NCBI GenBank assembly: GCA_964035575.1
Contig: OZ037844.1
Coordinates: forward strand, 1,240,001 to 1,304,000
Length of the DNA stretch: 64,000 bases
Origin: Rhynchopus sp. YZ270_cl-10
Taxonomy: Eukaryota
Direction of reading: 5' to 3'
In this document: piece by piece, positions 8,138-58,131 of the stretch
How positions within the stretch are numbered: position 1 is the stretch's first letter
Layout of the letters: each line of letters starts with the position of its first letter
Position numbers and translations under genes: made by a program
Notes under the pieces: model-generated
Told to the model about the DNA's origin: nothing
The model's input: only the letters and a program-made list of their open reading frames with translations
Database searches by the model: none

Positions 8138-8391
8138 CAGATGTGAAGATGTTGGTCGAAGCAGGTGCGGATGTGTGTGCCACAGACAACCAAGGAGACA
8201 CATGTCTGACCCTTGCGGCGTATCATGGACACACCGAGACTGTGCGCTATCTTGTGGGCTTGCCTGAGGTGGATGTGAATCACAGGACGAGGGCGGGCTG
8301 CACTGCGTTGCAGCTTGCGAGGAAGAAACCACATGCAGATGTGGTGCAGGTTCTCCTGGAACACGGTGCCAGCGACGAACCCACCACGTGA
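8138..8391 (+). pseudogene. 3' remnant of an ankyrin-family gene (last two repeats and C-cap)
   Basis: KMLVEAGADVCATDNQGDTCL...EHGASDEPTT matches the ends of the downstream paralogues; no N-terminal module. Confidence 0.85.
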
Positions 8392-9105
8392 GTAGCTTTC
8401 TTGGTGGCTTTTCCTCGTATGGTATTTCGTGAGGATCGCGTCAGCTCACAAAGGGGGGATGGAATGACATTTGGAATGAAAAGAGGGAAGTGAAGGTGAC
8501 ACTGCACCAACGTCACAGGCGTGTGATAGCATCCATTATTATTACCGTCTTCATAAACTGTTTGGACCAGACATAGTTTGGTCCGTATTTTGCAGTTTTG
8601 CATTTCATTTGGTACTTCACACGGTCACCATTTTTACGAACACAGTATTTTATTGTCATTCCCAGCTTTCCAACAGGAAATAGAAACGACTGCCTGCCCC
8701 ACTTTTGTTTCGGTACGACATCTCTGTCTTTCTCAACACTCATTTCCCATCGGTTGCTCTTTCCATCTCCCCCACCTCCTCATGGGCAGTCCTCATCCAG
8801 GATCCCGCTTCCAGAGTCGGGTAACGGACAAGGCAAACATGCCTTCTAGGTTGTTTGATTACGATACAGCGAATTAGTTGCCAAGGGCTCTGTCACGAAC
8901 ACCAGGGGATAGGTTATTTTTGGAACACATCTGTGCGATGTGATGTGTGCTCGCGTCGTGGGGTTTGTGCAGGGTAGAGGGTCGGGGTGCTCTGCAGTGT
9001 GGATGCTGCAGGCCAGATCCCTCGAGTTGTCTTTATGGCGAATGTATACCACCCACCACTCACCTCACAACCTCCAGAAAAGAAACAGTATAAAAGACAC
9101 AAACC
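8392..9105 (+). repeat. ~710-bp intergenic spacer of array 1; near-identical copies at 11104-11814, 13378-14086, 16214-16924
   Basis: Identical or near-identical spurious ORFs recur in the ORF track at each copy. Confidence 0.95.
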
Positions 9106-11103
9106 ATGTCGAAGCGACACGCAGACAGCACACCTGACGAGAAGGCATCAAAGAGAAGAAAGCTTTCAGACTCGGTCTTGGTGGAGGCTGCCAGGAACGG
9201 CGACACGACTGCCGTGCGGGTGGGACTTGAGAAGCTCAGCCCAGACACAGACAGCAAAACGGTTGCCTTCGATGCTGTGCACGAGGCATGCAGAGGGAAC
9301 CACGATGAATGCCTCGCACGACTTCTTCCCCACTACGTTGACCGAACGAACGGCTTTGGGATACTGCTGAGTGAGTGCATCCACGCAGACCACACTGCGT
9401 GCACGGAGGTCCTTTTGCAGCATTGGAAGTCATGCTCGGACAACACCCGTGTCTGCTTGGAAGTGGATGTGGACGAGCTCCTGCTGACCTGTCTGCACCT
9501 GAAGCGAGTGGAGGTGCTTGCGATGCTGCTGAAGGAACACAAGCTGGACCTGAATGGGAGGCGCATCAAGCCGTTGTGTGTGGCTGCACACCTTGGGGAT
9601 CTTGCGAGTGCAGAGCTGCTCGTCGCGTCTGGGGCAGGGGTGGAGGTGCAGAGTGAGAATGACGCGAGCTGTGCACGTCCGCTGTACATTGCAGCGTGCC
9701 GTGGCGATGCGGATGTGGTGCAGTTTCTTGTTGCGAAGGGTGCAGACTGCGAACACTGTGTTGATGGGATGACTGCGCTGGATGCTGCTGTTGCTGGGCA
9801 TCACCTTGCCTGTGTGAAGGCACTTCTTTCTGGCGGTGCTGTGGGCAAGCCTGTTGATGAGGAGGCAGCTCTTGTGCTGCGTGCGGTGCTTGCAGGGGCA
9901 GAGGACGTGCTCCACTTCGCCTTGGTGGAGGCTGCCAGGAACGGCGACACGACTGCCGTGCGGGTGGGACTTGAGAAGCTCAGACCAGACGAAGACAGCA
10001 AAACGGTTGCCTTCGATGCTGTGCACGAGGCATGCAGAGGGAACCACGATGAATGCCTCGCACTGCTTCTTCCGTATGTTGAGACAACGCAGATGGGCTT
10101 CGGGATGTTGCTGAGTGAGTGCATCCACGCAGACCACACTGCGTGCACGGAGGTCCTCTTGCAGCATTGGAAGTCAGTCTGCAGCAACGTTGCGTTTGTC
10201 CCACACGGGCAGGAGGCAGACAACGAAGATAATACACCTCGTCCCTGTCCAGCCATGTGGGAGGACCCTGCAGTGGGTCAGGTGCTCATTGATGCAGGGG
10301 CAGACATCGAGACAAAGGATGAGAAGGGACTTTCACCTCTTCTCAGGGCTAGCATTTCAGGCAAGATTGCAGTTGTGAAGATGTTGGTCAAAGCAGGTGC
10401 GGGAGTGTGTGTCACCGACAACGTAGGAGACACATGTCTTATGCTGGCTGCAGTCTTTGGACACACCGAGACTGTGCGCTATCTTGTGGGCTTGCCAGAG
10501 GTGAACGTGAATCACTCAGGTGATGAAGGCTTCACTGCGCTGCACTGGGCATGTCAAGAAGACTACCGCACTATGGTGCAGGTCCTCATTGATGCAGGTG
10601 CAGACATCGAGGCGAAGGACGAGGAGGGATATTCGCCTCTGCTCAGAGCGAGCAAGGATGCGTCTCTCGATACTGTGAAGATGTTGGTCAAAGCAGGTGC
10701 GGGAGTGTGCGCCACAGACAACAAAGGACACACATGTCTTACCCTTGCGGCATGGTGTGGACACACCGAGACTGTGCGCTATCTTTTGTGCTTGCCTGAG
10801 GTGGATGTGACTCAGTCAAATAACAGGGGATACACTGCACTGCATCGCGCAGTGCCAATGAAGCACGCAGATGTGGTGGAGGTGCTCATTGATGCAGGGG
10901 CAGACGTTGAGGGAAAGCGTGATGGGATCTGCAATACACCTCTGCACTATGCTTGTGAGGTTGGGGAACGCGAAATTGTGAGGATGTTACTGGAAGCAGG
11001 TGCAGACATCGAGGCAATAGACGAGAACGCGAGTAATGAAACACATGCAGATGTGGTGCAAGTTCTCCTGGAACACGGTGCGAGCAACGAACCCACCGCG
11101 TGA
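9106..11103 (+). CDS. Ankyrin-repeat protein, 665 aa, with duplicated N-terminal module
   Basis: NLS-like KR-x11-KRRK; VEAARNGDTTAV module present twice; canonical ankyrin repeats. Confidence 0.92.
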   Translation: MSKRHADSTPDEKASKRRKLSDSVLVEAARNGDTTAVRVGLEKLSPDTDSKTVAFDAVHEACRGNHDECLARLLPHYVDRTNGFGILLSECIHADHTACTEVLLQHWKSCSDNTRVCLEVDVDELLLTCLHLKRVEVLAMLLKEHKLDLNGRRIKPLCVAAHLGDLASAELLVASGAGVEVQSENDASCARPLYIAACRGDADVVQFLVAKGADCEHCVDGMTALDAAVAGHHLACVKALLSGGAVGKPVDEEAALVLRAVLAGAEDVLHFALVEAARNGDTTAVRVGLEKLRPDEDSKTVAFDAVHEACRGNHDECLALLLPYVETTQMGFGMLLSECIHADHTACTEVLLQHWKSVCSNVAFVPHGQEADNEDNTPRPCPAMWEDPAVGQVLIDAGADIETKDEKGLSPLLRASISGKIAVVKMLVKAGAGVCVTDNVGDTCLMLAAVFGHTETVRYLVGLPEVNVNHSGDEGFTALHWACQEDYRTMVQVLIDAGADIEAKDEEGYSPLLRASKDASLDTVKMLVKAGAGVCATDNKGHTCLTLAAWCGHTETVRYLLCLPEVDVTQSNNRGYTALHRAVPMKHADVVEVLIDAGADVEGKRDGICNTPLHYACEVGEREIVRMLLEAGADIEAIDENASNETHADVVQVLLEHGASNEPTA

Positions 11104-11814: not shown

Positions 11815-13377
11815 ATGTCGAAGCGACACGCAGACAGCACCCCTGACGAGAAGGCACCAAAGAGAAGAAAGCTTTCTGCAGACTCGGTCTTGGTGGAGGC
11901 TGCCAGGAACGGCGACACGACTGCCGTGCGGGCGGGACTTGAGAAGCTCATCCCAGACACAGACAGCAAAACGGTTTCCTTCGATGCTGTGCACGAGGCA
12001 TGCAGAGGGAACCACGATGAATGCCTCGCACTGCTTCTTCCGTATGTTGAGACGACGCAGATGGGCTTCGGGATGCTGCTGAGTGAGTGCATCCACGCAG
12101 ACCACACTGCGTGCACGGAGGTCCTCTTGCAGCATTGGAAGTCAGTCTGCAGCAACGTTGCGTTTGTCCCACACGGGAGCAAGACGAAACCTCGTCCCTG
12201 TCCAGCCATGTGGGCGGACCCTGCAGTGTGTCAGGTGCTCATTGATGCAGGGGCAGACATCGAGACAAAGGATGAGAGGGGACTTTCACCTCTGCTATGG
12301 GCGAGCATTTCAGGCAAGATCGAAGTCGTGAAGATGTTGGTCAAAGCAGGTGCGGGAGTGCGTGTCACAGACACAGAAGGGCACACATGTCTTACCCTTG
12401 CGGCATGGAGTGGACACACCGAGACTGTGAAGATGTTGGTCAAAGCAGGTGCGGACCTGAGCGCTACAGACAACAAAGGAGATACATGTCTGACCATTGC
12501 GGCATGTTTTGGACACACCGAAATTGTGCGCTATCTTGTGGGCTTGCCAGAGGTGAACGTGAATCACTCAGGTGATGAAGGCTTCACTGCGCTGCACTGG
12601 GCATGTCAAGAAGACTACCGCACTATGGTGGAGGTCCTCATTGATGCAGGTGCAGACATCGAGGCGAAGGACGAGGAGGGATATTCGCCTCTGCTCAGAG
12701 CGAGCAAGGATGCGTCTCTCGATACTGTGAAGATGTTGGTCAAAGCAGGTGCGGGAGTGCGTGTGACAGACAACAGAGAACACACGTGTCTTACCCTTGC
12801 GGCATGGTGTGGACACACCGAGACTGTGCGCCATCTTTTGTGCTTGCCTGAGGTGGATGTGCATCAGTCAAATAACAGGGGATACACTGCACTGCATCGC
12901 GCAGTGGCAATGAAGCACTCTGCTGTGGTGGAGGTGCTCATTGATGCAGGGGCAGACGTTGAGGGAAAGCGTGATGGGATCTGCAATACACCTCTGCACT
13001 ATGCTTGTGAGGTTGGGGAACGCGAAATTGTGAGGATGTTACTGGAAGCAGGTGCAGACATCGAGGCAAAAGACGAGAACGGAGGATCGCCTCTGCTCTT
13101 GGCCAGCAAGGAAGGGTCTCTCGATACTGTGAAGAAGTTGCTTGAAGCAGGGGCGGACGTTTGTGCCACTAACGAGGTCGGAGACACATGTCTTTTATTT
13201 GCGGCTTATTGTGGACACACCGAGATTGTGCGCTATCTTGTGGGCTTGCCTGAGGTGGATGTGAATCACAGGACGAGGGCGGGCTGCACTGCGTTGCAGC
13301 GTGCGAGGAAGAAACCACATGCAGATGTGGTGCAGGTTCTCCTGGAACACGGTGCCAGCGACGAACCCACCGCGTGA
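11815..13377 (+). CDS. Ankyrin-repeat protein, 520 aa
   Basis: Conserved N-module plus GADIE/GxSPL, GxTCL, GxTALH repeat triplets. Confidence 0.93.
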   Translation: MSKRHADSTPDEKAPKRRKLSADSVLVEAARNGDTTAVRAGLEKLIPDTDSKTVSFDAVHEACRGNHDECLALLLPYVETTQMGFGMLLSECIHADHTACTEVLLQHWKSVCSNVAFVPHGSKTKPRPCPAMWADPAVCQVLIDAGADIETKDERGLSPLLWASISGKIEVVKMLVKAGAGVRVTDTEGHTCLTLAAWSGHTETVKMLVKAGADLSATDNKGDTCLTIAACFGHTEIVRYLVGLPEVNVNHSGDEGFTALHWACQEDYRTMVEVLIDAGADIEAKDEEGYSPLLRASKDASLDTVKMLVKAGAGVRVTDNREHTCLTLAAWCGHTETVRHLLCLPEVDVHQSNNRGYTALHRAVAMKHSAVVEVLIDAGADVEGKRDGICNTPLHYACEVGEREIVRMLLEAGADIEAKDENGGSPLLLASKEGSLDTVKKLLEAGADVCATNEVGDTCLLFAAYCGHTEIVRYLVGLPEVDVNHRTRAGCTALQRARKKPHADVVQVLLEHGASDEPTA

Positions 13378-14086: not shown

Positions 14087-16213
14087 ATGTCGAAGCGACA
14101 CGCAGACAGCACACCTGACGAGAAGGCATCAAAGAGAAGAAAGCTTTCAGACTCGGTCTTGGTGGAGGCTGCCAGGAACGGCGACACGACTGCCGTGCGG
14201 GTGGGACTTGAGAAGCTCAGCCCAGACACAGACAGCAAAACGGTTGCCTTCGATGCTGTGCACGAGGCATGCAGAGGGAACCACGATGAATGCCTCGCAC
14301 GACTTCTTCCCCACTACGTTGACCGAACGAACGGCTTTGGGATACTGCTGAGTGAGTGCATCCACGCAGACCACACTGCGTGCACGGAGGTCCTTTTGCA
14401 GCATTGGAAGTCATGCTCGGACAACACCCGTGTCTGCTTGGAAGTGGATGTGGACGAGCTCCTGCTGACCTGTCTGCACCTGAAGCGAGTGGAGGTGCTT
14501 GCGATGCTGCTGAAGGAACACAAGCTGGACCTGAATGGGAGGCGCATCAAGCCGTTGTGTGTGGCTGCACACCTTGGGGATCTTGCGAGTGCAGAGCTGC
14601 TCGTCGCGTCTGGGGCAGGGGTGGAGGTGCAGAGTGAGAATGACGCGAGCTGTGCACGTCCGCTGTACATTGCAGCGTGCCGTGGCGATGCGGATGTGGT
14701 GCAGTTTCTTGTTGCGAAGGGTGCAGACTGCGAACACTGTGTTGATGGGATGACTGCGCTGGATGCTGCTGTTGCTGGGCATCACCTTGCCTGTGTGAAG
14801 GCACTTCTTTCTGGCGGTGCTGTGGGCAAGCCTGTTGATGAGGAGGCAGCTCTTGTGCTGCGTGCGGTGCTTGCAGGGGCAGAGGACGTGCTCCACTTCG
14901 CCTTGGTGGAGGCTGCCAGGAACGGCGACACGACTGCCGTGCGGGTGGGACTTGAGAAGCTCAGACCAGACGAAGACAGCAAAACGGTTGCCTTCGATGC
15001 TGTGCACGAGGCATGCAGAGGGAACCACGATGAATGCCTCGCACTGCTTCTTCCGTATGTTGAGACAACGCAGATGGGCTTCGGGATGTTGCTGAGTGAG
15101 TGCATCCACGCAGACCACACTGCGTGCACGGAGGTCCTCTTGCAGCATTGGAAGTCAGTCTGCAGCAACGTTGCGTTTGTCCCACACGGGCACAAGGATG
15201 AGACCCAAGGTACGACACCTCGTCCCTGTCCAGCCATGTGGGAGGACCCTGCAGTGTGTCAGGTGCTCATTGATGCAGGTGCAGACATCGAGACAAAGGA
15301 TGAGGATGAACGTTCACCTCTGCTCAGGGCGAGCATTTCAAGCAAGTCCGCAGTTGTGAAGATGTTGGTCGAAGCAGGTGCGGGAGTGTGTGTCACAGAC
15401 CACAATGGAGACACGTGTCTTATGCTTGCTGCAGTCTTTGGACACATCGAGACTGTGCGCTATCTTGTGGGTTTGAAGGATGTGGACGTGAATCACGCAG
15501 AGAACAACGGCAACGCTGTGTTGCACTGGACAGTGCTGAAAGGACATGTCGATGTGGTGCAGGTGCTAATTGATGCAGGGGCAGACATAGAAGCGAGGAA
15601 CAAAGATGACGAACAGGGGCGTTCACCTCTGCTCTTGGCAAGTGTCGAAGGGCATCTCGATATTGTGAAGATGTTGGTCGAAGCAGGTGCGGGAGTCCGT
15701 GTCACAGACAACAATGGAGACACATGTCTTGACCTTGCGTCATTTTTTGGACACACCGAGATTGTGCGTTATCTTGTGGGCTTGCCAGAGGTGGACGCGA
15801 GCAAGAAGTCTACCGATGGTAACACTGCGATGATTCTTGCTGCTTTAGTCAGTCATGCAGCCGTGGTGGAGGTGCTCATTGATGCAGGTGCAGACATTGA
15901 TGGCAAGGACGAGAAGGGGAGGTCGCCTCTGCTATGGGCCAGTAAGAGAGGAGCACCGAATATTGTGAAGATATTGGTCAAAGCAGGTGCAGGAGTGTGT
16001 GTCACAGACAACCGTGGAGACACGTGTCTTACCCTTGCGGCTGCCAATGGACACACTGAGACTGTGCGTACTCTTCTGTGCATGCCTGAGGTGGACGTGA
16101 ATCACAGGACGAGGGCGGGCCGCACTGCGTTGCAGCGTGCGAGGAAGAAACCACATGCAGATGTGGTGCAGATTCTCCTGGAACACGGTGTCAGCGACGA
16201 ACCCACCGCGTGA
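14087..16213 (+). CDS. Ankyrin-repeat protein, 708 aa, with duplicated N-terminal module
   Basis: First ~368 aa identical to the 9106 gene; different repeat cassettes afterwards. Confidence 0.92.
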   Translation: MSKRHADSTPDEKASKRRKLSDSVLVEAARNGDTTAVRVGLEKLSPDTDSKTVAFDAVHEACRGNHDECLARLLPHYVDRTNGFGILLSECIHADHTACTEVLLQHWKSCSDNTRVCLEVDVDELLLTCLHLKRVEVLAMLLKEHKLDLNGRRIKPLCVAAHLGDLASAELLVASGAGVEVQSENDASCARPLYIAACRGDADVVQFLVAKGADCEHCVDGMTALDAAVAGHHLACVKALLSGGAVGKPVDEEAALVLRAVLAGAEDVLHFALVEAARNGDTTAVRVGLEKLRPDEDSKTVAFDAVHEACRGNHDECLALLLPYVETTQMGFGMLLSECIHADHTACTEVLLQHWKSVCSNVAFVPHGHKDETQGTTPRPCPAMWEDPAVCQVLIDAGADIETKDEDERSPLLRASISSKSAVVKMLVEAGAGVCVTDHNGDTCLMLAAVFGHIETVRYLVGLKDVDVNHAENNGNAVLHWTVLKGHVDVVQVLIDAGADIEARNKDDEQGRSPLLLASVEGHLDIVKMLVEAGAGVRVTDNNGDTCLDLASFFGHTEIVRYLVGLPEVDASKKSTDGNTAMILAALVSHAAVVEVLIDAGADIDGKDEKGRSPLLWASKRGAPNIVKILVKAGAGVCVTDNRGDTCLTLAAANGHTETVRTLLCMPEVDVNHRTRAGRTALQRARKKPHADVVQILLEHGVSDEPTA

Positions 16214-16924: not shown

Positions 16925-17921
16925 ATGTCGAAGCGACACGCAGACAGCACCCCTGACGAGAAGGCACCAAAGAGAAGAAAGCTTTCTGCAGACTCGGTCT
17001 TGGTGGAGGCTGCCAGGAACGGCGACACGACTGCCGTGCGGGCGGGACTTGAGAAGCTCAGCCCAGACACAGACAGCAAAACGGTTTCCTTCGATGCTGT
17101 GCACGAGGCATGCAGAGGGAACCACGATGAATGCCTCGCACGACTTCTTCCCCACTACGTTGACCGAACGAACGGCTTTGGGATCCTGCTGAGTGAGTGC
17201 ATCCACGCAGACCACACTGCGTGCACGGAGGTCCTCTTGCAGCATTGGAAGTCATGCTCGGACAACACCCGTGTCTGCTTGGAAGTCGATGTGGACGAGC
17301 TCCTGCTGACCTGTCTGCACCTGAAGCGAGTGGAGGTTTCCAACAGGAAATAGAAACGACTGCCTGCCCCACTTTTGTTTCGGTACGACATCTCTGTCTT
17401 TCTCAACACTCATTTCCCATCGGTTTTTCGCGACCGCACGACTTGCACAGCATACGTGACGCCTACAGACGTGCTGGAGGCACTGCTTGATACTGGGGCA
17501 GACACCGAGGCAAAGAATGTGGAGGGGTGGTCGGCGCTACTCGTTGCGAGCAGCGCAGGTGAAGCAAAATCTGTGAAGCTGTTAGTCGAAGCAGGTGCGG
17601 GAGTGTGTGTCACAGACAACGAAGGACGCACATGTCTTATTCTTGCGTCAGGCGCTGGACACATGTCTTGACCTTGCGTCATTTTTTGGACACACCGAGA
17701 CTGTGCGCTATCTTGTGGGTTTGAAGGAGGTGAACGTGAACTACCTAGGTTATGAAGGCTGTACTGCGTTACACTTAGCTGCACAACAAGTTCTTCCTGA
17801 TGTGGTGAAGCTTCTGTTGGAGCACGGTGCGGACAAGTCGTTGTGCAATGAGGCGGGGGAGACGGCACTTGATAATGCAGCAGCAGGTGGGTGTCGTGAG
17901 TGTTGTCGGCTCTTGAGCTGA
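16925..17921 (+). pseudogene. Rearranged ankyrin gene: truncated N-terminus (16925-17338), inserted spacer fragment, frameshifted C-terminal repeats (~17468-17921)
   Basis: Coding sequence switches at ~17338 into spacer sequence TTCCAACAGGAAATAG; repeats resume at ~17468 with a frameshift at ~17660; C-cap as in the 18301 gene. Confidence 0.85.
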
Positions 17922-20040: not shown

Positions 20041-20280
20041 ACCATTTGGGTTTCTTTATCCATCTGCCTGTGACGAGAACTATCTAACCATCTACAAGCA
20101 GGTTCAGATTCACATTCATATTTATTTTTGGGTTTTTTGTATTTCATTGCTTTCTCTCATTCTCATTGCTATATTTCCCAACCAAACTGTGCCCCCTCCC
20201 TCTCTCTCTCTCCCTTTTTCTCTCACCCCCCTCACCACATCCACACCCAGAACCAGACAATATACCCAAAGAGTTCAAAG

Positions 20281-22820: not shown

Positions 22821-22939
22821 TTCTGCAATCGCACCGAATCGGACGATGCGATCGACAAAAACGCCCAAAAATGCACCCCATACCCCTTTTTTTTTCGTGA
22901 TCTGGACCAGGTTTTTTTTTTTTTTTGGATCATATCTCA

Positions 22940-30133: not shown

Positions 30134-30141
30134 GGCTTGGG

Positions 30142-44976: not shown

Positions 44977-45019
<43 letters not shown>

Positions 45020-46577: not shown

Positions 46578-48266
46578 ATGTCGAAGGACGAGGAACACGC
46601 AGACAGCACACCCGACGAGAAGGCATCAAAGAGAAGAAAGCTTTCAGACTCGGTCTTGGTGGAGGCTGCCAGGAACGGCGACACGACTGCCGTGCGGGTG
46701 GGACTTGAGAAGCTCAGCCCAGACACAGACAGCAAAACGGTTGCCTTCGATGCTGTGCACGAGGCATGCAGAGGGAACCACGATGAATGCCTCGCACTGC
46801 TTCTTCCGTATGTTGAGACAACGCAGATGGGCTTCGGGATGCTGCTGAGTGAGTGCATCCACGCAGACCACACTGCGTGCACGGAGGTCCTCTTGCAGCA
46901 TTGGAAGTCAGTCTGCAGCAACGTTGCGTTTGTCCCACACGGGATAGAGGTAGATAGCGAAGATAAGACACCTTGTCCCTGTCCAGCCATGTGGGCGGAC
47001 CCTGCAGTGTGTCAGGTGCTCATTGATGCAGGGGCAGACATCGAGACAAAGAATGAGAATGGACGTTCACCTCTGCTCAGGGCGAGCGTTTCAGGCAAGA
47101 TCGCAGTTGTGAAGATGTTGGTTGAAGCAGGTGCGGACGTGTGTGTCACAGACAACGAAGGAGACTCATGTCTTACCCTTGCGGCATGGAGTGAACACAC
47201 CGAGACTGTGCGTTATCTTGTGGGTTTGAAGGATGTGGACGTGAATCACGCAGAGAACGACGGCGACACTGCGTTGCACTTCGCAGTGCAGGAAGGACAT
47301 GGCGATGTGGTGCAGGTGCTAATTGATGCAGGTGCAGACCTAGAGGCAAAGAACAAAGATGACGAGCAGGGGCGTTCACCTCTGCTCTTGGCAAGCGTCG
47401 AAGGGCATCTCGATATTGTGAAGATGTTGGTCGAAGCAGGTGCGGGGGTGCGTGTAACAGACAACGAAGGTGACACGTGTCTTATCCTTGCGTCACTCCG
47501 TGGACACACCGAGACTGTGCGCTATCTTGTTGGATTGAAGGAGGTGGAAGTGAATCAGAAGGATAACGATGGCTTCACTGCTCTGCCCCTTGCTGCTTCA
47601 GGAAGTCATGCAGATGTGGTGAAGGTGCTCATTGATGCAGGGGCAGACATCGAGACAAAGGATGAGACGGGACGTTCGCCTCTGCACTGGGCTTGCTGTT
47701 CAGGAGCACTCGCAGTTGTGAAGGTGTTGGTCAAAGCAGGTGCAGACGTGTGTGTCACAAACAACAAAGGAAACACGTGTCTCATGCTTGCGGCACATAA
47801 TGGACACACCGAGACTGTGCGTACTCTTCTGTGCATGCCTGAGGTGGACGTGAATCAGTCGAATACCGGGGGCTGCACTGCACTGGTCGGTACAGTGATG
47901 CTGAAGCACTCAGATGTACTGGAGGTGCTTATTGATGCAGGGGCAGACATTGGGGCAAAGAGTGATAGGATGGTACGTACGCCTCTTCACAGTGCTTGTG
48001 AGGTTGGGGAACGCGATATTGCGAAGATGTTGGTCGAAGCAGGTGCGGATGTGTGTTCCACAGACAACGATGGAAACAGTTGTCTTTCTCTTGCTGCTTA
48101 TTTTGGACACACCGACACTGTGCGTTACCTTTTGGGCTTGAAGGATGTGGATGTGAACCACAGGTGTTTGTCTGGCCACACTGCGTTGCACCATGCGAGA
48201 CAGAAACAACATACAGATGTGGAGCAGGTTCTCCTCGAGCACGGTGGGGAAGTCTTCCCGCAATGA
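46578..48266 (+). CDS. Ankyrin-repeat protein, 562 aa from the conserved Met
   Basis: Conserved N-module; C-cap and 3' flank shared with the 24862 gene. Confidence 0.92.
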   Translation: MSKDEEHADSTPDEKASKRRKLSDSVLVEAARNGDTTAVRVGLEKLSPDTDSKTVAFDAVHEACRGNHDECLALLLPYVETTQMGFGMLLSECIHADHTACTEVLLQHWKSVCSNVAFVPHGIEVDSEDKTPCPCPAMWADPAVCQVLIDAGADIETKNENGRSPLLRASVSGKIAVVKMLVEAGADVCVTDNEGDSCLTLAAWSEHTETVRYLVGLKDVDVNHAENDGDTALHFAVQEGHGDVVQVLIDAGADLEAKNKDDEQGRSPLLLASVEGHLDIVKMLVEAGAGVRVTDNEGDTCLILASLRGHTETVRYLVGLKEVEVNQKDNDGFTALPLAASGSHADVVKVLIDAGADIETKDETGRSPLHWACCSGALAVVKVLVKAGADVCVTNNKGNTCLMLAAHNGHTETVRTLLCMPEVDVNQSNTGGCTALVGTVMLKHSDVLEVLIDAGADIGAKSDRMVRTPLHSACEVGERDIAKMLVEAGADVCSTDNDGNSCLSLAAYFGHTDTVRYLLGLKDVDVNHRCLSGHTALHHARQKQHTDVEQVLLEHGGEVFPQ

Positions 48267-48741: not shown

Positions 48742-51700
48742 ATGTCGAAGGAGCAACACGCAGACAGCGAAGAGAACCCACCGAAGAGAAGGCAGCTTTC
48801 AGACTCGGTCTTGGTGGAGGCTGTGAGGAACGGCGACACGACTGCCGTGCGGGTGGGACTTGAGAAGCTCAACCCAGACACAGACACAGACAGCAAAACG
48901 GTTGCCTTCGATGCTGTGCACGAGGCATGCAGAGGGAACCACGATGAATGCCTCGCACTGCTTCTTCCGTATGTTGAGACAACGCAGATGGGCTTTGGGA
49001 TCCTGCTGAGTGAGTGCGTCCACGCAGACCACACTGCGTGCACGGAGGTCCTCTTGCAGCATTGGAAGTCAGTCTGCAGCAACGTTGCGTTTGTCCCACA
49101 CGGGCAGGAGGCAGACAACGAAGATAAGACACCTCGTCCCTGTCCAGCCATGTGGGCGGACCCTGCAGTGTGTCAGGTGCTCATTGATGCAGGGGCAGAC
49201 ATCGAGACAAAGGATGAGGATGGACGTTCACCTCTTCTCAGGGCGAGCATTTCAGGCAAGTCCGCAGCTGTGAAGATGTTGGTCGAAGCAGGTGCAGACG
49301 TGTGTGTCACAGACAAGCAAGGAGATACGTGTCTTACCCTTGCGTCTTGTTTTGGACAAACTGAAAATGTGCGCTATCTTGTGGGTTTGAAGGAGGTGGA
49401 TGTGAATCACACAAGCGAGGACGGCTACACTGTGTTGCACTGTGCAGGTGAAAACAACTACCCTGTAGTGTGTCAGGTGCTCATTGATGCAGGGGCAGAC
49501 ATCGAGACAAAGGAAAACAAGGGACGTCCACCTCTTCACAAGGCTAGCAGTTCAGGAGCACTCAATGTTGTGAAGGTGTTGGTCGAAGCAGGTGCAGACG
49601 TGTGTGTCACAGATAACACCGGACGCACGTGTCTTATCTTTGCGGCAATGTTTGGACACACCGAGACTGTGCGCTATCTTGTGGGTTTGAAGGATGTGGA
49701 CGTGAATTACTCAGGTTATGAATGCTGCAGTGCTTTGAGCCATGCAGTTGTGGGAAACCACGCAGACGTGGTGCAGGTGCTCATTGATGCAGGTGCCGAC
49801 ATTGAGACACAGGAAAAGAAGGGACGTTCGCCTCTTCACAAGGCTAGCAGTTCAGGAGCACTCAATGTTGTGAAGGTGTTGGTCGAAGCAGGTGCAGACG
49901 TGTGTGTCACAGATAACCTGGGACGAACATGTGTTGCCCTTGCGTCTCATTTGGGACACACCGAGACTGTGCGTTACCTTGCGGGTTTGAAGGAGGTGGA
50001 CTTGGAGCACGCTGATAGCACGGGACGCACTGCGTTGAGCCATGCAGTTGTTGCAAACCACGCAGACGTGGTGGAGGTGCTCATTGCTGCAGGGGCAGAT
50101 ATTGAGACAAGAGACAATCACGACCGTACGCCGCTCCTGGTGGCGAGCCAGTGTGGGAATCTCCGAGTTGTGGAGGTGTTCGCCAAAGCAGGTGCAGACG
50201 TGTGTGTCACAGATAACAAAAGACGCACGTGTCTTACCCTTGCGGCTGCCAGTGGACACACCGAGACTGTGCGCTATCTTACGGGCTTGGAGGATGTGGG
50301 CGTAAATCACTCAGGTGATGAAGGCTGCACTGCGTTGCACTGGGCAAGTAAAAAAAGCTATCCTGAAGTAGTTCAGGTGCTCATTGATGCAGGGGCCGAT
50401 ATTGAGGCTAAGGAAGAGAAGGGACGTTCGCCTCTTCACAAGGCTTGCATGTCGGGGCATCTCGATATTGTGAAGCTGTTAGTCAGATCAGGTGCGGGAG
50501 TGCGTGCCACAGACAACAAAGGAGTCACGTGCCTTATCGGTGCGTCATATTTGGGACACACCGAGACTGTGCGCTACCTTGTGGGTTTGAAGGATGTGGA
50601 CATAAATCACGTTGATAGCACAGGCTGTACTGCGTTGAGACATGCAGCTGTGCGAAACCACGCAGATGCGGTGCAGGTGCTCATTGATGCAGGGGCAGAC
50701 ATCGAGGTGAAGGATGAGGAGGGACGTTCACCTCTGCTCGTATCGAACTGTTTGGGCCACCTCGATATTGCGATAATGTTAGTCAAAGCAGGTGCGGACG
50801 TGTGTGTCACAGACAACAAAGGACGCACGTGTCTTACCCTTGCGTCTTATTATGGACACACCGAGACTGTGCACTACCTTGTGGGTTTGAAGGAGGTGGA
50901 CGTGAATCACTCAGGTGATGAAGGCTTCACTGCGTTGCACTGGGCAGGTCAAAAAAACCATCCTGAAGTAGTTCAGGTGCTCATTGATGCAGGGGCAGAC
51001 TTCGAGGCTAAGGAAGAGGAGGGACGTTCGCCTCTTCACAAGGCTTGCAATTCAGGGCATCTCGATATTGTGAAGCTGTTAGTCAGATCAGGTGCGGGAG
51101 TGCGTGCCACAGACAACAAAGGAGTCACATGTCTTATCGGTGCGTCATATTTGGGACACACCGAGACTGTGCGTTACCTTGTGGGTTTGAAGGAGGTGGA
51201 CATAAATCACGTTGATAGCACAGGCTGTACTGCGTTGAGACATGCAGCTGTGCGAAACCACGCAGATGCGGTGGAGGTGCTCATTGATGCAGGGGCAGAC
51301 ATCGAGGTGAAGGATGAGGAGGGACGTTCACCTCTGCTCGTATCGAACTGTTTGGGCCACCTCGATATTGCGATAATGTTAGTCAAAGCAGGTGCGGACG
51401 TGTGTGTCACAGACAACAAAGGACGCACGTGTTTTGCCCTTGCGTCTTATTATGGACATACCGAGACTGTGCGTTACCTTGCGGGTTTGAAGGAGGTGGA
51501 CTTGGAGCACGCTGATAGCACGGGACGCACTGCGTTGAGCCATGCAGTTGTTGCAAACCACGCAGACGTGGTGGAGGTGCTCATTGATGCAGGGGCAGAT
51601 ATTGAGACAAGAGGCAACCACGACCGTACGCCGCTCCTGGTGGCGAGCCAGTGTGGGAATCTCCAAGTTGTGAAGGTGTTGGTCAAAGCAGGTGCGGATG

Positions 51701-52215
51701 TGTGTGTCACACACGACAATGGAGACACATGTCTTGCCGTTGCTGCTGCCAATGGACACTCCGAGACTGTGCGTACTCTTCTGTGCTTGCCTGAGGTGGA
51801 TGTGAATCATTCAAATAACAGGGGCTTCACTTCACTGCACCGCGCAGTGTTAAAGAAGCACTCTGATGTGGTGCAGCTGCTCATTGATGCAGGGGCAGAC
51901 ATTGAGGTGAAGCGAGACAGAATTTCACCTCTTCGTTGTGCTTGTGACGTTGGGGAACTCGACATTGTGAAGATGTTGGTCGAAGCAGGTGTGGACGTGT
52001 GTGAGGTAGACAACAAAGGAAACACGTGTCTTATCATTGCGGCCCATTTTGGACACACCGAGACTGTGCGCTATCTTGTGGGATTACCGGAGGTGGATGT
52101 GAACCACAGAAATGTTTCTGGCCTGACTGCGTTGCAGCATGCGAGCCACAAACAACATGCAGATGTGGTGCAGATTCTCTTCTGTGCTTCAGGCAAAGAT
52201 ATTTTCCCTTTTTGA
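48742..52215 (+). CDS. Ankyrin-repeat protein, 1157 aa (~10 triplet cassettes)
   Basis: 300-bp periodic repeats after the conserved N-module. Confidence 0.93.
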   Translation: MSKEQHADSEENPPKRRQLSDSVLVEAVRNGDTTAVRVGLEKLNPDTDTDSKTVAFDAVHEACRGNHDECLALLLPYVETTQMGFGILLSECVHADHTACTEVLLQHWKSVCSNVAFVPHGQEADNEDKTPRPCPAMWADPAVCQVLIDAGADIETKDEDGRSPLLRASISGKSAAVKMLVEAGADVCVTDKQGDTCLTLASCFGQTENVRYLVGLKEVDVNHTSEDGYTVLHCAGENNYPVVCQVLIDAGADIETKENKGRPPLHKASSSGALNVVKVLVEAGADVCVTDNTGRTCLIFAAMFGHTETVRYLVGLKDVDVNYSGYECCSALSHAVVGNHADVVQVLIDAGADIETQEKKGRSPLHKASSSGALNVVKVLVEAGADVCVTDNLGRTCVALASHLGHTETVRYLAGLKEVDLEHADSTGRTALSHAVVANHADVVEVLIAAGADIETRDNHDRTPLLVASQCGNLRVVEVFAKAGADVCVTDNKRRTCLTLAAASGHTETVRYLTGLEDVGVNHSGDEGCTALHWASKKSYPEVVQVLIDAGADIEAKEEKGRSPLHKACMSGHLDIVKLLVRSGAGVRATDNKGVTCLIGASYLGHTETVRYLVGLKDVDINHVDSTGCTALRHAAVRNHADAVQVLIDAGADIEVKDEEGRSPLLVSNCLGHLDIAIMLVKAGADVCVTDNKGRTCLTLASYYGHTETVHYLVGLKEVDVNHSGDEGFTALHWAGQKNHPEVVQVLIDAGADFEAKEEEGRSPLHKACNSGHLDIVKLLVRSGAGVRATDNKGVTCLIGASYLGHTETVRYLVGLKEVDINHVDSTGCTALRHAAVRNHADAVEVLIDAGADIEVKDEEGRSPLLVSNCLGHLDIAIMLVKAGADVCVTDNKGRTCFALASYYGHTETVRYLAGLKEVDLEHADSTGRTALSHAVVANHADVVEVLIDAGADIETRGNHDRTPLLVASQCGNLQVVKVLVKAGADVCVTHDNGDTCLAVAAANGHSETVRTLLCLPEVDVNHSNNRGFTSLHRAVLKKHSDVVQLLIDAGADIEVKRDRISPLRCACDVGELDIVKMLVEAGVDVCEVDNKGNTCLIIAAHFGHTETVRYLVGLPEVDVNHRNVSGLTALQHASHKQHADVVQILFCASGKDIFPF

Positions 52216-53218: not shown

Positions 53219-55177
53219 ATGTCGAAGGAGCAACACGCAGACAGCACACCTGGCGAGAAGGCAAAGAGAAGAAAGCTTTCTGCAGACTCGGTCTTGGTGG
53301 AGGCTGCCAGGAACGGCGACACGACTGCCGTGCGAGCAGGACTTGAGAAGCTCAGCCCAGACACAGACAGCAAAACGGTTGCCTTCGATGCTGTGCACGA
53401 GGCATGCAGAGGGAACCACGATGAATGCCTCGCACTGCTTCTTCCGTATGTTGAGACAACGCAGATGGGCTTCGGGATGCTGCTGAGTGAGTGCATCCAC
53501 GCAGACCACACTGCGTGCACGGAGGTCCTCTTGCAGCATTGGAAGTCAGTCTGCAGCAACGTTGCGTTTGTCCCACACGGGTGCAACATGAAACCTCGTG
53601 CCTGTCCAGCCATGTGGGCGGACCCTGCAGTGTGTCAGGTGCTCATTGATGCAGGGGCAGACATCGAGACAAAGGATGAGGATGGACGTTCACCTCTTCT
53701 CAGGGCGAGCGTTTCAGGCAAGATCGCAGTTGTGAAGATGTTGGTTGAAGCAGGTGCAGACGTGTGTGTCACAGACAAGCAAGGAGACACATGTCTTGCC
53801 CTTGCGTCTTGTTTTGGACACACCGAGACTGTGCGCTATCTTGTGGGTTTGAAGGATGTGGACGTGAATCACGCATGCGATGAAGGCTACACTGCATTGC
53901 ACTGTGCAGGTCAAAAAAACCACCCTGTAGTGTGTCAGGTGCTCATTGATGCAGGGGCAGATATTGAGGCAAAGGAAGAGAAGGGACGTTCACCTCTTCA
54001 CAATGCTGGCCTGTCAGGAGCACTCTATGTTGTGAAGGTGTTGGTCGAAGCAGGTGCGGACGTGTGTGTCACAGACAACAAAGGTGACACATGTCTGATA
54101 CTTGCGTCATATTTGGGACACACCGAGACTGTGCGTTACCTTGTGGGCTTGAAGGGGGTGGACATGAAGCACGTTGATAGCATAGGCTGTACTGCATTGA
54201 GCCATGCAGTTGTGCGAAACCACCCGGACGTGGTGCAGGTGCTCATTGATGCAGGGGCTGATATTGAGACAAGAGGCAACCACGACCGTACGCCGCTCGT
54301 GGTGGCGAGCCAGTGTGGGAATCTCCGAGTTGTGAAGATGTTGGTCAAAGCAGGTGCGGGTGTGTGTGTCACTGACAACCAGGGACGCATGTGTCTTACC
54401 CTTGCGGCTGCCAGTGGACGCACCGAGACTGTGCGCCATCTTGCGGGTTTGAAGGAGGTGGACGTGAATCACGTTGATAGCACAGGCTGCACTGCATTGA
54501 GACATGCAGCTGCGGGAAACCACGCAGATGTGTTAGAGGTGCTCATTGATGCAGGGGCAGATATTGAGACAAGAGACAACCACGACCGTACCCCGCTCCT
54601 GGTGGCGAGCCAGTGTGGGAATCTCCGAGTTGTGAAGATGTTGGTCAAAGCAGGTGCAGACGTGTGTGTCACCGACAACGAAGGAGACACATGTCTTACC
54701 CTTGCGGCTGCCAGTGGACACACCGAGACTGTGCGTACTCTTCTGTGCTTGCCTGAGGTGGATGTGAATCATGCAAAGTACAACGGCTTGACTTCACTGC
54801 ACCTCGCAGTGTTAAAGAAGCACTCTGCTGTGGTGCAGCTGCTCATTGATGCAGGGGCAGACATTGAGGTGAACCGAAACAGACTTACACCTCTTCGCTG
54901 TGCTTGTGACGTTGGGGAACTCGACATTGTACAGATGTTGGTCGAAGCAGGTGTGGACGTGTGTGAGGTAGACAACAAAGGAAACACGTGTCTTATCATT
55001 GCGGCCCATTTTGGACACACCGAGACTGTGCGCTATCTTGTGGGATTACCGGAGGTGGATGTGAACCACAGAAATGTTTCTGGCCTGACTGCGTTGCAGC
55101 ATGCGAGCCACAAACAACATGCAGATGTGGTGCAGATTCTCTTCTGTGCTTCAGGCAAAGATATTTTCCCTTTTTGA
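53219..55177 (+). CDS. Ankyrin-repeat protein, 652 aa
   Basis: Conserved N-module, five triplets, C-cap identical to the 48742 gene. Confidence 0.93.
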   Translation: MSKEQHADSTPGEKAKRRKLSADSVLVEAARNGDTTAVRAGLEKLSPDTDSKTVAFDAVHEACRGNHDECLALLLPYVETTQMGFGMLLSECIHADHTACTEVLLQHWKSVCSNVAFVPHGCNMKPRACPAMWADPAVCQVLIDAGADIETKDEDGRSPLLRASVSGKIAVVKMLVEAGADVCVTDKQGDTCLALASCFGHTETVRYLVGLKDVDVNHACDEGYTALHCAGQKNHPVVCQVLIDAGADIEAKEEKGRSPLHNAGLSGALYVVKVLVEAGADVCVTDNKGDTCLILASYLGHTETVRYLVGLKGVDMKHVDSIGCTALSHAVVRNHPDVVQVLIDAGADIETRGNHDRTPLVVASQCGNLRVVKMLVKAGAGVCVTDNQGRMCLTLAAASGRTETVRHLAGLKEVDVNHVDSTGCTALRHAAAGNHADVLEVLIDAGADIETRDNHDRTPLLVASQCGNLRVVKMLVKAGADVCVTDNEGDTCLTLAAASGHTETVRTLLCLPEVDVNHAKYNGLTSLHLAVLKKHSAVVQLLIDAGADIEVNRNRLTPLRCACDVGELDIVQMLVEAGVDVCEVDNKGNTCLIIAAHFGHTETVRYLVGLPEVDVNHRNVSGLTALQHASHKQHADVVQILFCASGKDIFPF

Positions 55178-56178
55178 TGTCCATTTGATCTGGGCTGTTT
55201 GGGGAGTGTGTTCTAAGTTTTATTTGTAAAAATATGGGTTTATCAGACCCGTGTTACAGCCCTTGCACCCCTCTTTAAAAACCCCTAAACGTGATCTGGG
55301 GATCGGGGATTTTACCCCGAATATTTACAGCTACCCTTGTTCCCCATATGCACAGCACACCCCGTTTTTTTCTTCTTCATCTTTTTTTCTCTTTCAATTC
55401 ACAAAAAGGAAAAGTAGTGGAGTGCGGTTTCAATGTTACGCACGTCACTGGACTACTCGATCCCTTATCCCAGTCTGTTAGCTAACTTTGTTCTGTGTAC
55501 GAGGGATATTCAGTACTGTGTCTCAACAGTCAGACAACGTGATGTGTTCTACGGCACACCGGATGCACTTCTGTTTGCAAGAAGCACGCTCCAGGATGCC
55601 TCGAATAGCATCACGTCTACGTACACGTGGGCGAAAGGAAACAAAAAAAAACAAACGTAACCTATTACAACCCTTGACCTTTCAGTGCGTACGACATAGT
55701 TAGCGTACCACAAAAGATGAACAGGGGTGTAGTTCTTGGCTGGGTTTCTTTTTCACATACATACGAACTGCGCAAATGATTGCCCTTAGGGTCCCCTGCT
55801 ATGCTCCCATGGTAACTCCGTTCTCTCACGGTACGGAACACGAACGTCCCACCCTTAGCATGAGCACGACCGAGCTGCGTTTGAGTATTGCAACTCTCTC
55901 CTTCTCGATATGCTGTGATGACGTGCACTCCGTTCGACATTCCTTATGTGTGACGATACAGCCGCGAGCATCCCAACACACCAGGGAGATTCGACTCAGG
56001 TCAGCAGATTCCCACCACCACCCTCAGGAGGGAGACTTCCACACCACCCGTTTCGACTGTGGCTGTGCTTGTCAGGGGTGGGAAGGCAGTTCAGGGACAC
56101 CCACCACTCACCTCACAACCTCCAGAAAAAGAAATAGCATAAAAGACACAACATTGAATATCAACATCTTCACAAACC

Positions 56179-58131
56179 ATGTCGAAGGAGCAACACGCAG
56201 ACAGCACACCTGACGAGAAGGCATCAAAGAGAAGAAAGCTTTCTGCAGACTCGGTCTTGGTGGAGGCTGCCAGGAACGGCGACACGACTGCCGTGCGGGT
56301 GGGACTTGAGAAGCTCAACCCAGACACAGACACAGACAGCAAAACGGTTGCCTTCGATGCTGTGCACGAGGCATGCAGAGGGAACCACGATGAATGCCTC
56401 GCACTGCTTCTTCCGTATGTTGAGACAACGCAGATGGGCTTCGGGATGCTGCTGAGTAAGTGCATCCACGCAGACCACACTGCGTGCACGGAGGTCCTCT
56501 TGCAGCATTGGAAGTCAGTCTGCAGCAACGTTGCGTTTGTCCCACACGGGTGCAACACGAAAGGAAATAAACTTCGTCCCTGTCCAGCCATGTGGGCGGA
56601 CCCTGCAGTGTGTCAGGTGCTCATTGATGCAGGGGCAGACATCGAGGTGAAGGATGAGGATGGACGTTCACCTCTGCTCAGGGCGAGCATTTCAGGCAAG
56701 CCCGCAGTTGTGAAGATGTTGGTTGAAGCAGGTGCGGGAGTGCGTGTCACAGACAACCAAGGACTCACGTGTCTTGCTCTTGCGTCTTGTTTTGGACGCA
56801 CCGAGACTGTGCGTTATCTTGCGGGTTTGAAGGAGGTGGACGTGAACTACCTAGGTGATGAAGGCTTCACTGCGTTGCACTGGGCAGGTCAAAAAAACCA
56901 TCCTGAAGTAGTTCAGGTGCTTATTGATGCAGGTGCAGACATCGAGGTGAAGGATGAGGAGGGATATTCGCCTCTGCTCAGGGTAAGCAAGTCAGGAGCA
57001 CTCAATGTTGTGAAGATGTTGGTCGAAGCAGGTGCGGACGTGTGTGTCACAGACAACAAAGGACGCACGTGTCTTATCTTTGCGGCACATAAAGGACACA
57101 CCGAGACTGTGCGCTATCTTGTGGGTTTGAAGGATGTGGACGTCAATCAGTCAGGTGATGAAGTCTGCAGTGCGTTGAGACGTGCAGTTGTGGGAAACCA
57201 CGCAGACGTGGTGCAGGTGCTCATTGATGCAGGGGCCGATATTGAGACAAAGGACCAGAAGGGACGTTCGCCTCTTCACAATGCTGGCAGTTCAGGAGCA
57301 CTCGATGTGCTGAAGACGTTAGTCAAAGCAGGTGCGGACGTCTGCGTCACAGACAGCACAGGACGCACATGTCTTATCTTTGCGGCACATAGAGGACATA
57401 CCGAGACTGTGCGCTATCTTGTTGGCTTGAAGGATGTGGACGTGAATCACGTTGATACCACGGGCTGGCCTGCATTGAGACATGCAGCTGTGCGAAACCA
57501 CCCGGACGTGGTGCAGGTGCTCATTGATGCAGGGGCAGATATTGAGACAAGAGACAACCACGACCGTACCCCACTCCTGGTGGCGAGCCAGTGTGGGAAT
57601 CTCCGAGTTGTGAAGGTGTTGGTCAAAGCAGGTGCGGATGTGTGTGTCACAGATAACAAAGGACTCACGTGTCTTACCCTTGCGGCTGGTTTAGGACACT
57701 CCGAGACTGTGCGTACTCTTCTGTGCTTGCCTGAGGTGGATGTGAATCAGTCACATAACAGGGGCTTCACTTCACTCCACTGCGCAGTGTTAAAGAAGCA
57801 CTCAGATGTGGTGCAGCTGCTCATTGATGCAGGGGCAGACATCGAGGTGAACCGAGACAGAATTTCACCTCTTCGTTGTGCTTGTGACGTCGGGGAACTC
57901 GACATTGTGCAAATGTTGGTGGAAGCAGGTGCGGGAGTGCGTGCCACAGACAACGAAGGAAACACATGTCTTATCCTTGCGGCACAAAAAGGACACACCG
58001 AGACTGTGCGCTATCTTGTGGGATTACCGGAGGTGGATGTGAACCACAGAAATGTTTCTGGCCTGACTGCGTTGCAGCATGCGAGCCACAAACAACATGC
58101 AGATGTGGTGCAGATTCTTTCTCTCATTTGA
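56179..58131 (+). CDS. Ankyrin-repeat protein, 650 aa
   Basis: Conserved N-module, five triplets. Confidence 0.93.
   Translation: MSKEQHADSTPDEKASKRRKLSADSVLVEAARNGDTTAVRVGLEKLNPDTDTDSKTVAFDAVHEACRGNHDECLALLLPYVETTQMGFGMLLSKCIHADHTACTEVLLQHWKSVCSNVAFVPHGCNTKGNKLRPCPAMWADPAVCQVLIDAGADIEVKDEDGRSPLLRASISGKPAVVKMLVEAGAGVRVTDNQGLTCLALASCFGRTETVRYLAGLKEVDVNYLGDEGFTALHWAGQKNHPEVVQVLIDAGADIEVKDEEGYSPLLRVSKSGALNVVKMLVEAGADVCVTDNKGRTCLIFAAHKGHTETVRYLVGLKDVDVNQSGDEVCSALRRAVVGNHADVVQVLIDAGADIETKDQKGRSPLHNAGSSGALDVLKTLVKAGADVCVTDSTGRTCLIFAAHRGHTETVRYLVGLKDVDVNHVDTTGWPALRHAAVRNHPDVVQVLIDAGADIETRDNHDRTPLLVASQCGNLRVVKVLVKAGADVCVTDNKGLTCLTLAAGLGHSETVRTLLCLPEVDVNQSHNRGFTSLHCAVLKKHSDVVQLLIDAGADIEVNRDRISPLRCACDVGELDIVQMLVEAGAGVRATDNEGNTCLILAAQKGHTETVRYLVGLPEVDVNHRNVSGLTALQHASHKQHADVVQILSLI

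What the first reader, a model, noticed from the sequence alone, without database searches (positions are those of the whole stretch)
8138..58131. Candidate natural DARPin-like repertoire: constant NLS module plus hypervariable ankyrin cassettes
Seen: 9 intact paralogues share a nearly invariant ~120-aa N-module. It is followed by roughly 2-10 copies of a ~300-bp A-B-C ankyrin triplet whose framework DNA is almost constant (e.g. CAGGTGCTCATTGATGCAGGGGCAGAC, GGACACACCGAGACTGTGCG). Variation is concentrated in the hairpin and first-helix positions. Established: these positions form the ankyrin binding surface and are the ones randomised in engineered DARPins; high internal conservation plus hypervariable sites also characterises fungal NLR sensor repeats. 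Inference: a rapidly diversifying recognition system (anti-viral, anti-symbiont or anti-transposon) acting in the nucleus and lacking any NACHT/NB-ARC domain.
Basis: partly seen in the sequence, partly recalled or inferred. Interest (0 to 1): 0.9.

Follow-up and report, generated by a model that had tools for sequence, protein, structure and literature searches.

The report
Diplonemid natural ankyrin binder library
A marine diplonemid-like protist carries a large family of ankyrin-only genes, nine intact in this window, whose predicted binding surface is under positive selection while a shared front module stays almost identical; it is likely an inherited library of intracellular binders against intruders such as bacterial symbionts, viruses or transposons, but no target, expression or location has been shown.

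Summary
Nine intact, uninterrupted, same-strand ORFs join a 132-139-aa N-module (doubled in two genes) to 2-10 A-B-C ankyrin triplets. The host is a diplonemid near Rhynchopus. A search found 281 hits; the 120 listed are all family members, 50 on a contig as long as the window's own.

At six DARPin-randomised positions fixed in advance, dN/dS is 2.1 (p=1.5e-5), against 0.64 on the back face and 0.44 elsewhere. Synonymous rates there are not raised. The signal survives a tree-free count, a multi-hit model, a site scan and recombination simulations. It is not significant for C repeats alone.

Corrections:
- The N-module is itself three degenerate ankyrin repeats, homogenised in DNA (98-100%).
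- The NLS is not constant: 24 of 120 members carry a null allele scattered over the repeat tree.
- The framework is 65-79% identical overall, not almost constant.

Best reading: a germ-line-diversified, effector-less ankyrin binder repertoire with a swappable nuclear tag. Targets, expression and localisation are untested. It is a new variant of a known kind.

The parts
9106..11103 (+). g1, 665 aa: doubled N-module with extra ankyrin insert, 2 triplets plus a shortened end
9331..9930 (+). Extra ankyrin insert of the long-N subtype, 100% identical to 14312-14911; the subtype marker is in 16 of 120 listed members
11815..13377 (+). g2, 520 aa, 11 repeats with doubled B-type units
11815..12213 (+). 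Example N-module (133 aa): disordered basic head, three ankyrin-like helix pairs without hairpins, variable linker; the 66-codon core is 98-100% identical in DNA among the nine genes
11860..11871 (+). KRRK, NLS-like basic motif (bipartite pattern with KR at residues 3-4); a null allele stands here in 24 of 120 family members
   Evidence: sequence; the NLS consensus is recalled, import is not tested
14087..16213 (+). g3, 708 aa: 99.7% identical to g1 over 1,787 bp of flank and N-part, then a different repeat array
18301..20040 (+). g4, 579 aa, 4 triplets
24862..26223 (+). g5, 453 aa, 3 triplets; AlphaFold model mean pLDDT 87, one ankyrin solenoid
46578..48266 (+). g6, 562 aa, 4 triplets
48742..52215 (+). 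g7, 1157 aa, 10 triplets, with recent internal duplications (identical repeats 600 and 1500 bp apart)
53219..55177 (+). g8, 652 aa, 5 triplets; shares its 3' end and flank with g7 (97.8% over 929 bp) and its 5' flank with g9
56179..58131 (+). g9, 650 aa, 5 triplets
8142..8391 (+). 3' fragment (last B and C repeats and tail) that lacks its 5' part; a 13-bp inverted repeat sits at the junction
16925..17353 (+). 5' fragment of the long-N subtype, fused to 3'-flank sequence
17489..17921 (+). 3' fragment related to g4's last triplet, broken by a frame change
27731..28066 (+). 5' fragment (N-module only) inside a local duplication

Best explanation
These genes belong to a family with at least 120 distinct members in a diplonemid-like protist, encoding stand-alone ankyrin solenoids whose predicted concave binding face is diversified by positive selection and repeat shuffling, and they likely act as an inherited library of intracellular binders that recognise and neutralise fast-evolving foreign proteins. 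Shown: the architecture; excess amino-acid change at binding-face codons with ordinary synonymous rates; purifying selection on the scaffold; mosaic arrays between paralogues; a DNA-homogenised N-module; and NLS-present and NLS-null alleles spread over the repeat tree. Inferred: each array binds its own target; the invariant three-repeat N-module caps the solenoid and may dock one shared host partner; the NLS allele sends a binder to nucleus or cytosol; with no enzyme or NLR switch attached, action is by sequestration or by handing the target to that partner. Most likely targets are proteins of intracellular bacteria or viruses.
For: dN/dS at positions 33, 2, 3, 5, 13, 14, chosen before the fit: pooled 2.12, p=1.5e-5 (2.32 on trees built without those codons). 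dS there is 0.9-1.2, like the scaffold. Back face 0.64, rest 0.44. Tree-free count on 51 disjoint pairs: pN/pS 1.59-1.93, p=0.0035 to 3e-5. Multi-hit model 1.76, p=3e-8. Site scan without priors: LRT 86.8; of 9 of 100 sites with posterior >0.95, 7 are in the 18 DARPin sites and 8 in the 27 concave-face sites. In neutral simulations with none to free recombination, 0 of 320 reached the B-repeat statistic. The repeats align without gaps to real DARPins, whose repeats differ mainly at these positions. 311 of 384 A, 374 of 411 B and 331 of 366 C repeats have distinct six-residue surfaces. g1 and g3 are 99.7% identical up to the array and then differ; most repeats are closest to one in another gene. 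The N-core is 98-100% identical even between genes with unrelated upstream DNA. The NLS-null allele needs 20 changes on the first-triplet tree against 21.9 when shuffled, with strongly supported KRRK/null sister pairs. Only ankyrin Pfam families pass their cut-offs. Diplonemids are known to host bacterial endosymbionts with many secreted proteins (PMC8061765, passages).
Against: C repeats alone are not significant (1.54, p=0.097). Positions 1, 9 and 10 as a class give 1.07. A18 (posterior 0.99) and A16 (0.87) lie outside the concave set. The dN/dS data come from only nine genes (103 distinct repeats), and one C repeat with an internal shift was kept. Paralogous repeats in general diverge fast, partly by positive selection (PMC5120217, passages), so selection alone does not name a function. 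N-module constancy is largely homogenisation (4 synonymous and 3 non-synonymous variable sites in 66 codons), so a docking role is not shown, and some relatives lack the core (P0271, P0276, P0295, P0298, P0377). Four of 13 copies in the window are broken. Whether this strain has a symbiont or virus is unknown.
Confidence: 0.55

Rival explanations
1. The binders serve a conflict inside the genome: they chase fast-evolving transposon or repeat-binding proteins in the nucleus, in the way KRAB zinc-finger families chase retroelements (comparison recalled).
For: An NLS-like motif is in the majority (75 KRRK and 16 KRR-x of 120) and persists in distant members that lost the N-core. The genes lie among high-copy repeats. 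The same selection signal is expected.
Against: A fifth of listed members have an NLS-null allele. No DNA-binding or repressor domain is detected. The N-module folds as ankyrin.
Confidence: 0.2
2. A largely neutral gene accordion: unequal crossing-over multiplies one ankyrin gene, the scaffold is kept only for folding, and the surface drifts.
For: Broken copies are common (4 of 13 here). The N-module is homogenised at synonymous sites too. Tandem copying of gene ends is described in Diplonema papillatum (PMC10161547, passages).
Against: Drift predicts dN/dS near 1 on all exposed faces. Found: about 2 on the concave face and 0.64 on the back face, robust in four further tests.
Confidence: 0.12
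3. The proteins are offensive effectors that this predatory or parasitic protist delivers into prey or host cells, with the NLS aimed at the victim's nucleus.
For: Bacterial and viral ankyrin expansions act this way (PMC5871332, passages). Parasitic and predatory behaviour is common in diplonemids (bioRxiv 10.64898/2026.01.29.702485, passage).
Against: The N-termini are basic and hydrophilic with no hydrophobic signal stretch (sequence; no signal-peptide predictor was available). No conserved export motif is seen in the C-terminal tails.
Confidence: 0.08
4. Self/non-self or mating-type recognition between conspecific cells, as for some fungal NLRs.
For: It is the same evolutionary regime as Podospora het repeats (PMC4986451, section 17).
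Against: The proteins are predicted to be intracellular, have no death or NOD domain, and cell fusion incompatibility is not known to me in diplonemids.
Confidence: 0.05

Closest known systems
ANK sensor domains of fungal NLRs (Podospora Pa_3_8560; Dyrka et al. 2014, PMC4986451, section 17 read, other passages seen)
   Same: Repeat-number variation, shuffling, and positive selection on the inner helix and hairpin of the concave face.
   Different: No NACHT/NB-ARC and no effector domain here; a three-repeat A-B-C unit; mean repeat identity below the 85% criterion; a multi-gene library rather than alleles of single loci; a constant ankyrin N-module with an NLS switch.
Engineered DARPins (PMC8683736 and PMC8229355, passages; PDB 5leb, 6mol)
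   Same: Cap, then internal repeats with a conserved scaffold and variable paratope; gap-free alignment; closest solved fold.
   Different: Natural and germ-line encoded; three alternating repeat types, about 6-30 repeats per protein; positions 9, 10, 16 and 18 also vary; binding not shown.
Giardia Protein 21.1 / Nek TALM-ankyrin families (PMC3218828, passages)
   Same: Large, dynamic, lineage-specific protist ankyrin family with its own repeat signature and unknown role.
   Different: No kinase, coiled coil or RING here; the passages I saw report no paratope-focused selection test.
Bodo saltans virus ankyrin accordion, 148 genes (PMC5871332, passages)
   Same: Tandem, recently duplicated ankyrin genes of variable repeat number in a euglenozoan host-parasite setting.
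   Different: Here the genes are host-encoded, among ordinary eukaryotic genes; a scan of viral contigs found no real relative.

Membership tests
Fungal-type NLR (STAND) receptors | Central NACHT or NB-ARC NTPase domain | tested here: not met
   None in the Pfam lists of the 120 listed members or in rescans of long members; no Walker A motif in 120. Proteins over 910 aa were seen only as 50%-cluster representatives.
Fungal-type NLR (STAND) receptors | N-terminal effector domain | tested here: not met
   The N-module matches Ank_2 (E 3.4e-5, below the curated cut-off), and nearly all of the top 50 structural matches are ankyrin proteins or DARPin fusions, best Z 8.4.
Fungal-type NLR (STAND) receptors | High internal repeat conservation (85% over 100 aa) | tested here: inconclusive
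   Mean identity is 51-68% in protein, but g7 and g8 hold near-identical internal repeats; T-reks itself was not run.
Fungal-type NLR (STAND) receptors | Positive selection on the concave repeat face | tested here: met
DARPin-like binder architecture | 33-residue ankyrin scaffold in DARPin register | tested here: met
   Gap-free alignment of an A-B pair to 5leb and 6mol; model pLDDT 87. C repeats have one extra residue.
DARPin-like binder architecture | Variation concentrated at positions 33, 2, 3, 5, 13, 14 | tested here: met
   Mean entropy 2.9/2.9/3.4 bits against 1.2/1.1/1.6 at other positions. The position list is recalled; it agrees with the DARPin repeats seen. Position 33 is variable mainly in C.
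DARPin-like binder architecture | Specific binding of different targets by different members | not testable with these tools
   Needs pull-downs or display selection.
Nuclear proteins with a classical NLS | K[KR]x[KR] motif in a disordered N-terminus in all members | tested here: not met
   8 of 9 in the window; of 120 listed, 75 KRRK class, 16 KRR-x, 24 null, 5 other. The head is disordered in the model.
Nuclear proteins with a classical NLS | Importin-dependent nuclear import | not testable with these tools
   Needs tagging experiments.
Diversity-generating (templated or hypermutating) systems | Raised mutation rate at variable codons | tested here: not met
   dS at the six positions (0.9-1.2) equals scaffold dS (0.9-1.3); pS 0.18-0.21 against 0.16-0.17.
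Giardia TALM-ankyrin (Protein 21.1/Nek) | TALM repeat motif, with kinase or RING domains | tested here: not met
   Repeats start SPL (A), TCL (B), TAL-H (C); no kinase or RING family found.

The most novel reading that the evidence does not exclude
A single-celled eukaryote has evolved an antibody-like intracellular immune repertoire from ankyrin repeats: hundreds of germ-line genes, each with a shuffled, positively selected variable region, a recombination-homogenised constant region that recruits one common effector, and an interchangeable address tag that deploys related specificities to nucleus or cytosol.
Probability: 0.3. Interest if true: 0.88.

Novelty: new variant of a known kind. Interest (0 to 1): 0.64.

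Why it matters
Diplonemids are among the most abundant marine protists, and little is known of how they handle symbionts, viruses or transposons. This family is a concrete candidate recognition system that needs no NLR switch. It shows natural selection picking largely the same surface positions that engineers randomise in DARPins. It also offers a three-repeat scaffold with hundreds of natural surfaces, and two simple experiments: localise NLS-present and NLS-null sister genes, and pull down partners of the constant module. I found no description of it: none of ten literature searches listed a paper on a diplonemid ankyrin family, and 'ankyrin' is absent from the main text of the D. papillatum genome paper, the Euglenozoa review and a 2026 Rhynchopus genome preprint. 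Their supplements were not read.

Tried and rejected
No whole genome is held, so there is no true genome-wide count and no codon data beyond the window.

Expression: no RNA holder was listed among 9 runs. The four runs laid are contigs; X1, X2 and X4 cover intergenic DNA as well as a single-copy gene, so they say nothing on transcription, and summed depth is no copy number. A second laying gave no answer.

Searches that found nothing useful: a framework motif gave 0 matches in metagenome contigs. The N-module in viral contigs gave 1 locus at 43% over 34 residues, rejected. An orthologue of the divergent member P0260: after six family hits at 43-54% only generic ankyrins followed (120 of 256 listed). 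The ESM Atlas returned generic ankyrin clusters only. An upstream-motif pattern did not match the intended sites (3 unrelated matches) and was dropped. Earlier findings for this genome, and two word searches, returned none.

Analyses: the first codon-model run failed to optimise for A and C and was replaced. Templated hypermutation was rejected because dS is not raised. An assembly artefact is unlikely because copies differ at hundreds of sites in frame and many distinct run contigs lie over the repeats. Hydrophobic windows in 11 of 120 proteins were not taken as membrane anchors. No complex prediction was run, as there is no candidate partner.
Full report
1. What is there. The window holds nine uninterrupted + strand ankyrin ORFs of 453-1157 aa and four broken pieces. 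They are interspersed with ordinary eukaryotic genes on the same strand: a Pus10 C-terminal part, a DsbA-like protein, an acyl-CoA dehydrogenase and a double Rab-like GTPase. Each gene has an N-module ending in a conserved PAMW motif, then A(33)-B(33)-C(34 aa) triplets with a 300-bp period, 2 to 10 per gene. The quoted framework motifs occur 12 and 23 times. Overall repeat identity is moderate, 65-79% in DNA, so only islands are near-constant.

2. Host. The window's Rab-like protein has its best hit at 75% identity in the EukProt set of Rhynchopus euleeides, and its best NCBI-named hit in Diplonema papillatum. The host is therefore a diplonemid near Rhynchopus. D. papillatum genes are reported as likely co-transcribed in clusters (PMC10161547, abstract and passages), so same-strand neighbours make transcription plausible. 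This is inference only.

3. Family size. The N-module found 281 proteins among 746 candidates of 286-910 aa. The 120 listed are all close members (74-100% identity), 113 from ENA without names and 7 encoded by the window. By my count of that table, 50 lie on a contig of the same length as the window's own, 36 on a second and 34 on contigs of 19 other lengths. That they come from one assembly is inferred; divergent ones could come from sister species. The other 161 hits were not shown. A search without word index gave 31 clusters at E<=1e-10 and then, apart from a few partial family members, mostly generic ankyrins. All 27 family or near-family clusters looked up were ENA-only. No orthologue in a named species appeared, but capped lists cannot prove absence. 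Relatives with triplets but without the N-core exist.

4. Selection. Entropy peaks at positions 2, 3, 5, 10, 13 and 14. That alone is expected of any ankyrin set, so I tested dN/dS on classes fixed in advance. The DARPin positions 33, 2, 3, 5, 13, 14 are recalled; the register was checked against real DARPins. I used 103 distinct canonical-length repeats of the 121 in the nine genes (29 A, 38 B, 36 C), with separate synonymous and non-synonymous rates for each class. Results: A 3.35 (p=0.005), B 2.51 (p=0.001), C 1.54 (p=0.097), pooled 2.12 (p=1.5e-5); positions 1/9/10 1.07; my recalled back-face set 0.64; the rest 0.44. Synonymous rates do not differ between classes, which argues against hypermutation. 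Controls: trees from framework codons only, 2.32; 51 disjoint pairs chosen on framework distance, pN/pS 1.59-1.93; double and triple nucleotide changes allowed, 1.76, p=3e-8; a site scan without priors, LRT 86.8, with 7 of 9 top sites among the 18 DARPin sites, p=6e-5. In 320 neutral simulations of the B set (128 without, 100 with block and 92 with free recombination), 14 passed the nominal 5% level, 1 reached dN/dS 2.5 and none reached the observed statistic. Against: C alone is not significant, A16 and A18 lie off the concave set, and all data come from one window.

5. How diversity is made. g1 and g3 are 99.7% identical over 1,787 bp of flank and N-part and then carry different arrays. g1 and g2 share a 99% block at different array positions. 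g7 has identical repeats 600 and 1,500 bp apart. g8 shares its 3' end with g7 and its 5' flank with g9. Identity among the nine genes falls from 99% in the N-core to 89% by the middle of the first A repeat and lower beyond (g2's extra B repeat lowers the later values). The N-core stays 98-100% identical between genes whose upstream 150 bp are unrelated. This is the pattern of unequal crossing-over and gene conversion plus point mutation under selection. No somatic mechanism is indicated.

6. The N-module. Models show a disordered 20-residue head, three helix pairs without hairpins (pLDDT mostly 80-94) and a loose linker, continuous with the solenoid. Nearly all top structural matches are ankyrin proteins or DARPin fusions, best Z 8.4, which is modest for helical repeats. 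It is thus a degenerate ankyrin cap, not a new effector domain. Most of its core positions are 95-100% conserved in 100 members and it stays about 75-98% identical in distant members. In the window it has 4 synonymous and 3 non-synonymous variable sites in 66 codons, so homogenisation explains much of the constancy and a docking role remains inference.

7. The NLS. Eight of nine window genes carry K[KR]x[KR], four in a bipartite pattern. Of the 120 listed members, 75 are KRRK class, 16 KRR-x, 24 carry an uncharged or weakly basic replacement (mostly N/H-S/G/N-T-T) and 5 are other. On a tree of the first triplet (112 of 120 rows, quick search, many forks unresolved), the null allele needs 20 changes against 21.9 when shuffled, and two pairs with SH-aLRT 99 join a KRRK gene to a null gene. 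The tag therefore appears to be exchanged independently of the array. Its effect on location is untested.

8. Mechanism. Most likely (0.55): a germ-line library of effector-less binders against foreign proteins inside the cell, acting by sequestration or through a shared partner of the N-module, and addressed to nucleus or cytosol. Rivals: conflict with transposons or repeats (0.2), neutral accordion (0.12), offensive effectors (0.08), allorecognition (0.05). That the concave face is being diversified by selection is common to all but the neutral reading and is well supported.

9. Comparison. It evolves like the ANK sensors of fungal NLRs (PMC4986451, section 17) but is not an NLR. It is built like a DARPin. 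Large protist or viral ankyrin expansions are known from Giardia, Bodo saltans virus and lichen partners, and fast divergence of paralogous repeats is general. What is new is the combination in a eukaryotic microbe: an ankyrin-only library of this size, a fixed three-repeat unit, measured paratope selection, a homogenised constant module and a swappable NLS. Papers were read as passages or single sections only, and no supplements were seen; these could mention diplonemid ankyrin families.

10. Verdict. Observation confirmed with corrections; interpretation partly supported; new variant of a known kind; interest 0.64.

Noticed in passing
window 8127-8154, 53202-53214, 56162-56174: A 13-mer in the 5' leaders of g8 and g9 is the exact reverse complement of a framework motif found 19 times on the other strand in the repeats. 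At 8127-8154 the two arms flank the break of a gene fragment, which suggests hairpin-related deletion or template switching.
   Followed up: partly
window 24300-24850: A fragment of eukaryotic large-subunit rRNA (RF02543, E 1.7e-49) lies directly upstream of g5.
   Followed up: partly
window 5569-7479: B-box zinc-finger protein followed, across frame breaks, by BspA-type leucine-rich repeats (LRR_5, E 4e-8); possibly a second recognition family, here broken.
   Followed up: partly
window 59115-63998: An open frame of at least 1,628 aa with cysteine-rich repeats and no Pfam match; looks like a large surface or secreted protein.
   Followed up: no
window 33855-35057: A 400-aa protein with two tandem Rab32-like GTPase domains; full-length relatives appear only among unnamed ENA and EukProt transcriptome proteins.
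   Followed up: partly
window 2016-2684 and 3522-4211: Two tandem, closely related ORFs; the first is a DsbA-like thioredoxin.
   Followed up: no
window 21400-24300: High-copy dispersed repeats between g4 and g5; many run contigs pile up there.
   Followed up: no
protein P0253 (not in the window): A family member with about 280 residues of GGFG-rich low-complexity tail, reminiscent of nucleoporin FG repeats; may be a gene-calling artefact.
   Followed up: no
protein P0260 (not in the window): A 907-aa protein with a divergent N-module, conventional ankyrin repeats and one terminal A-B-C triplet; a candidate for the ancestral form of the long-N subtype.
   Followed up: partly
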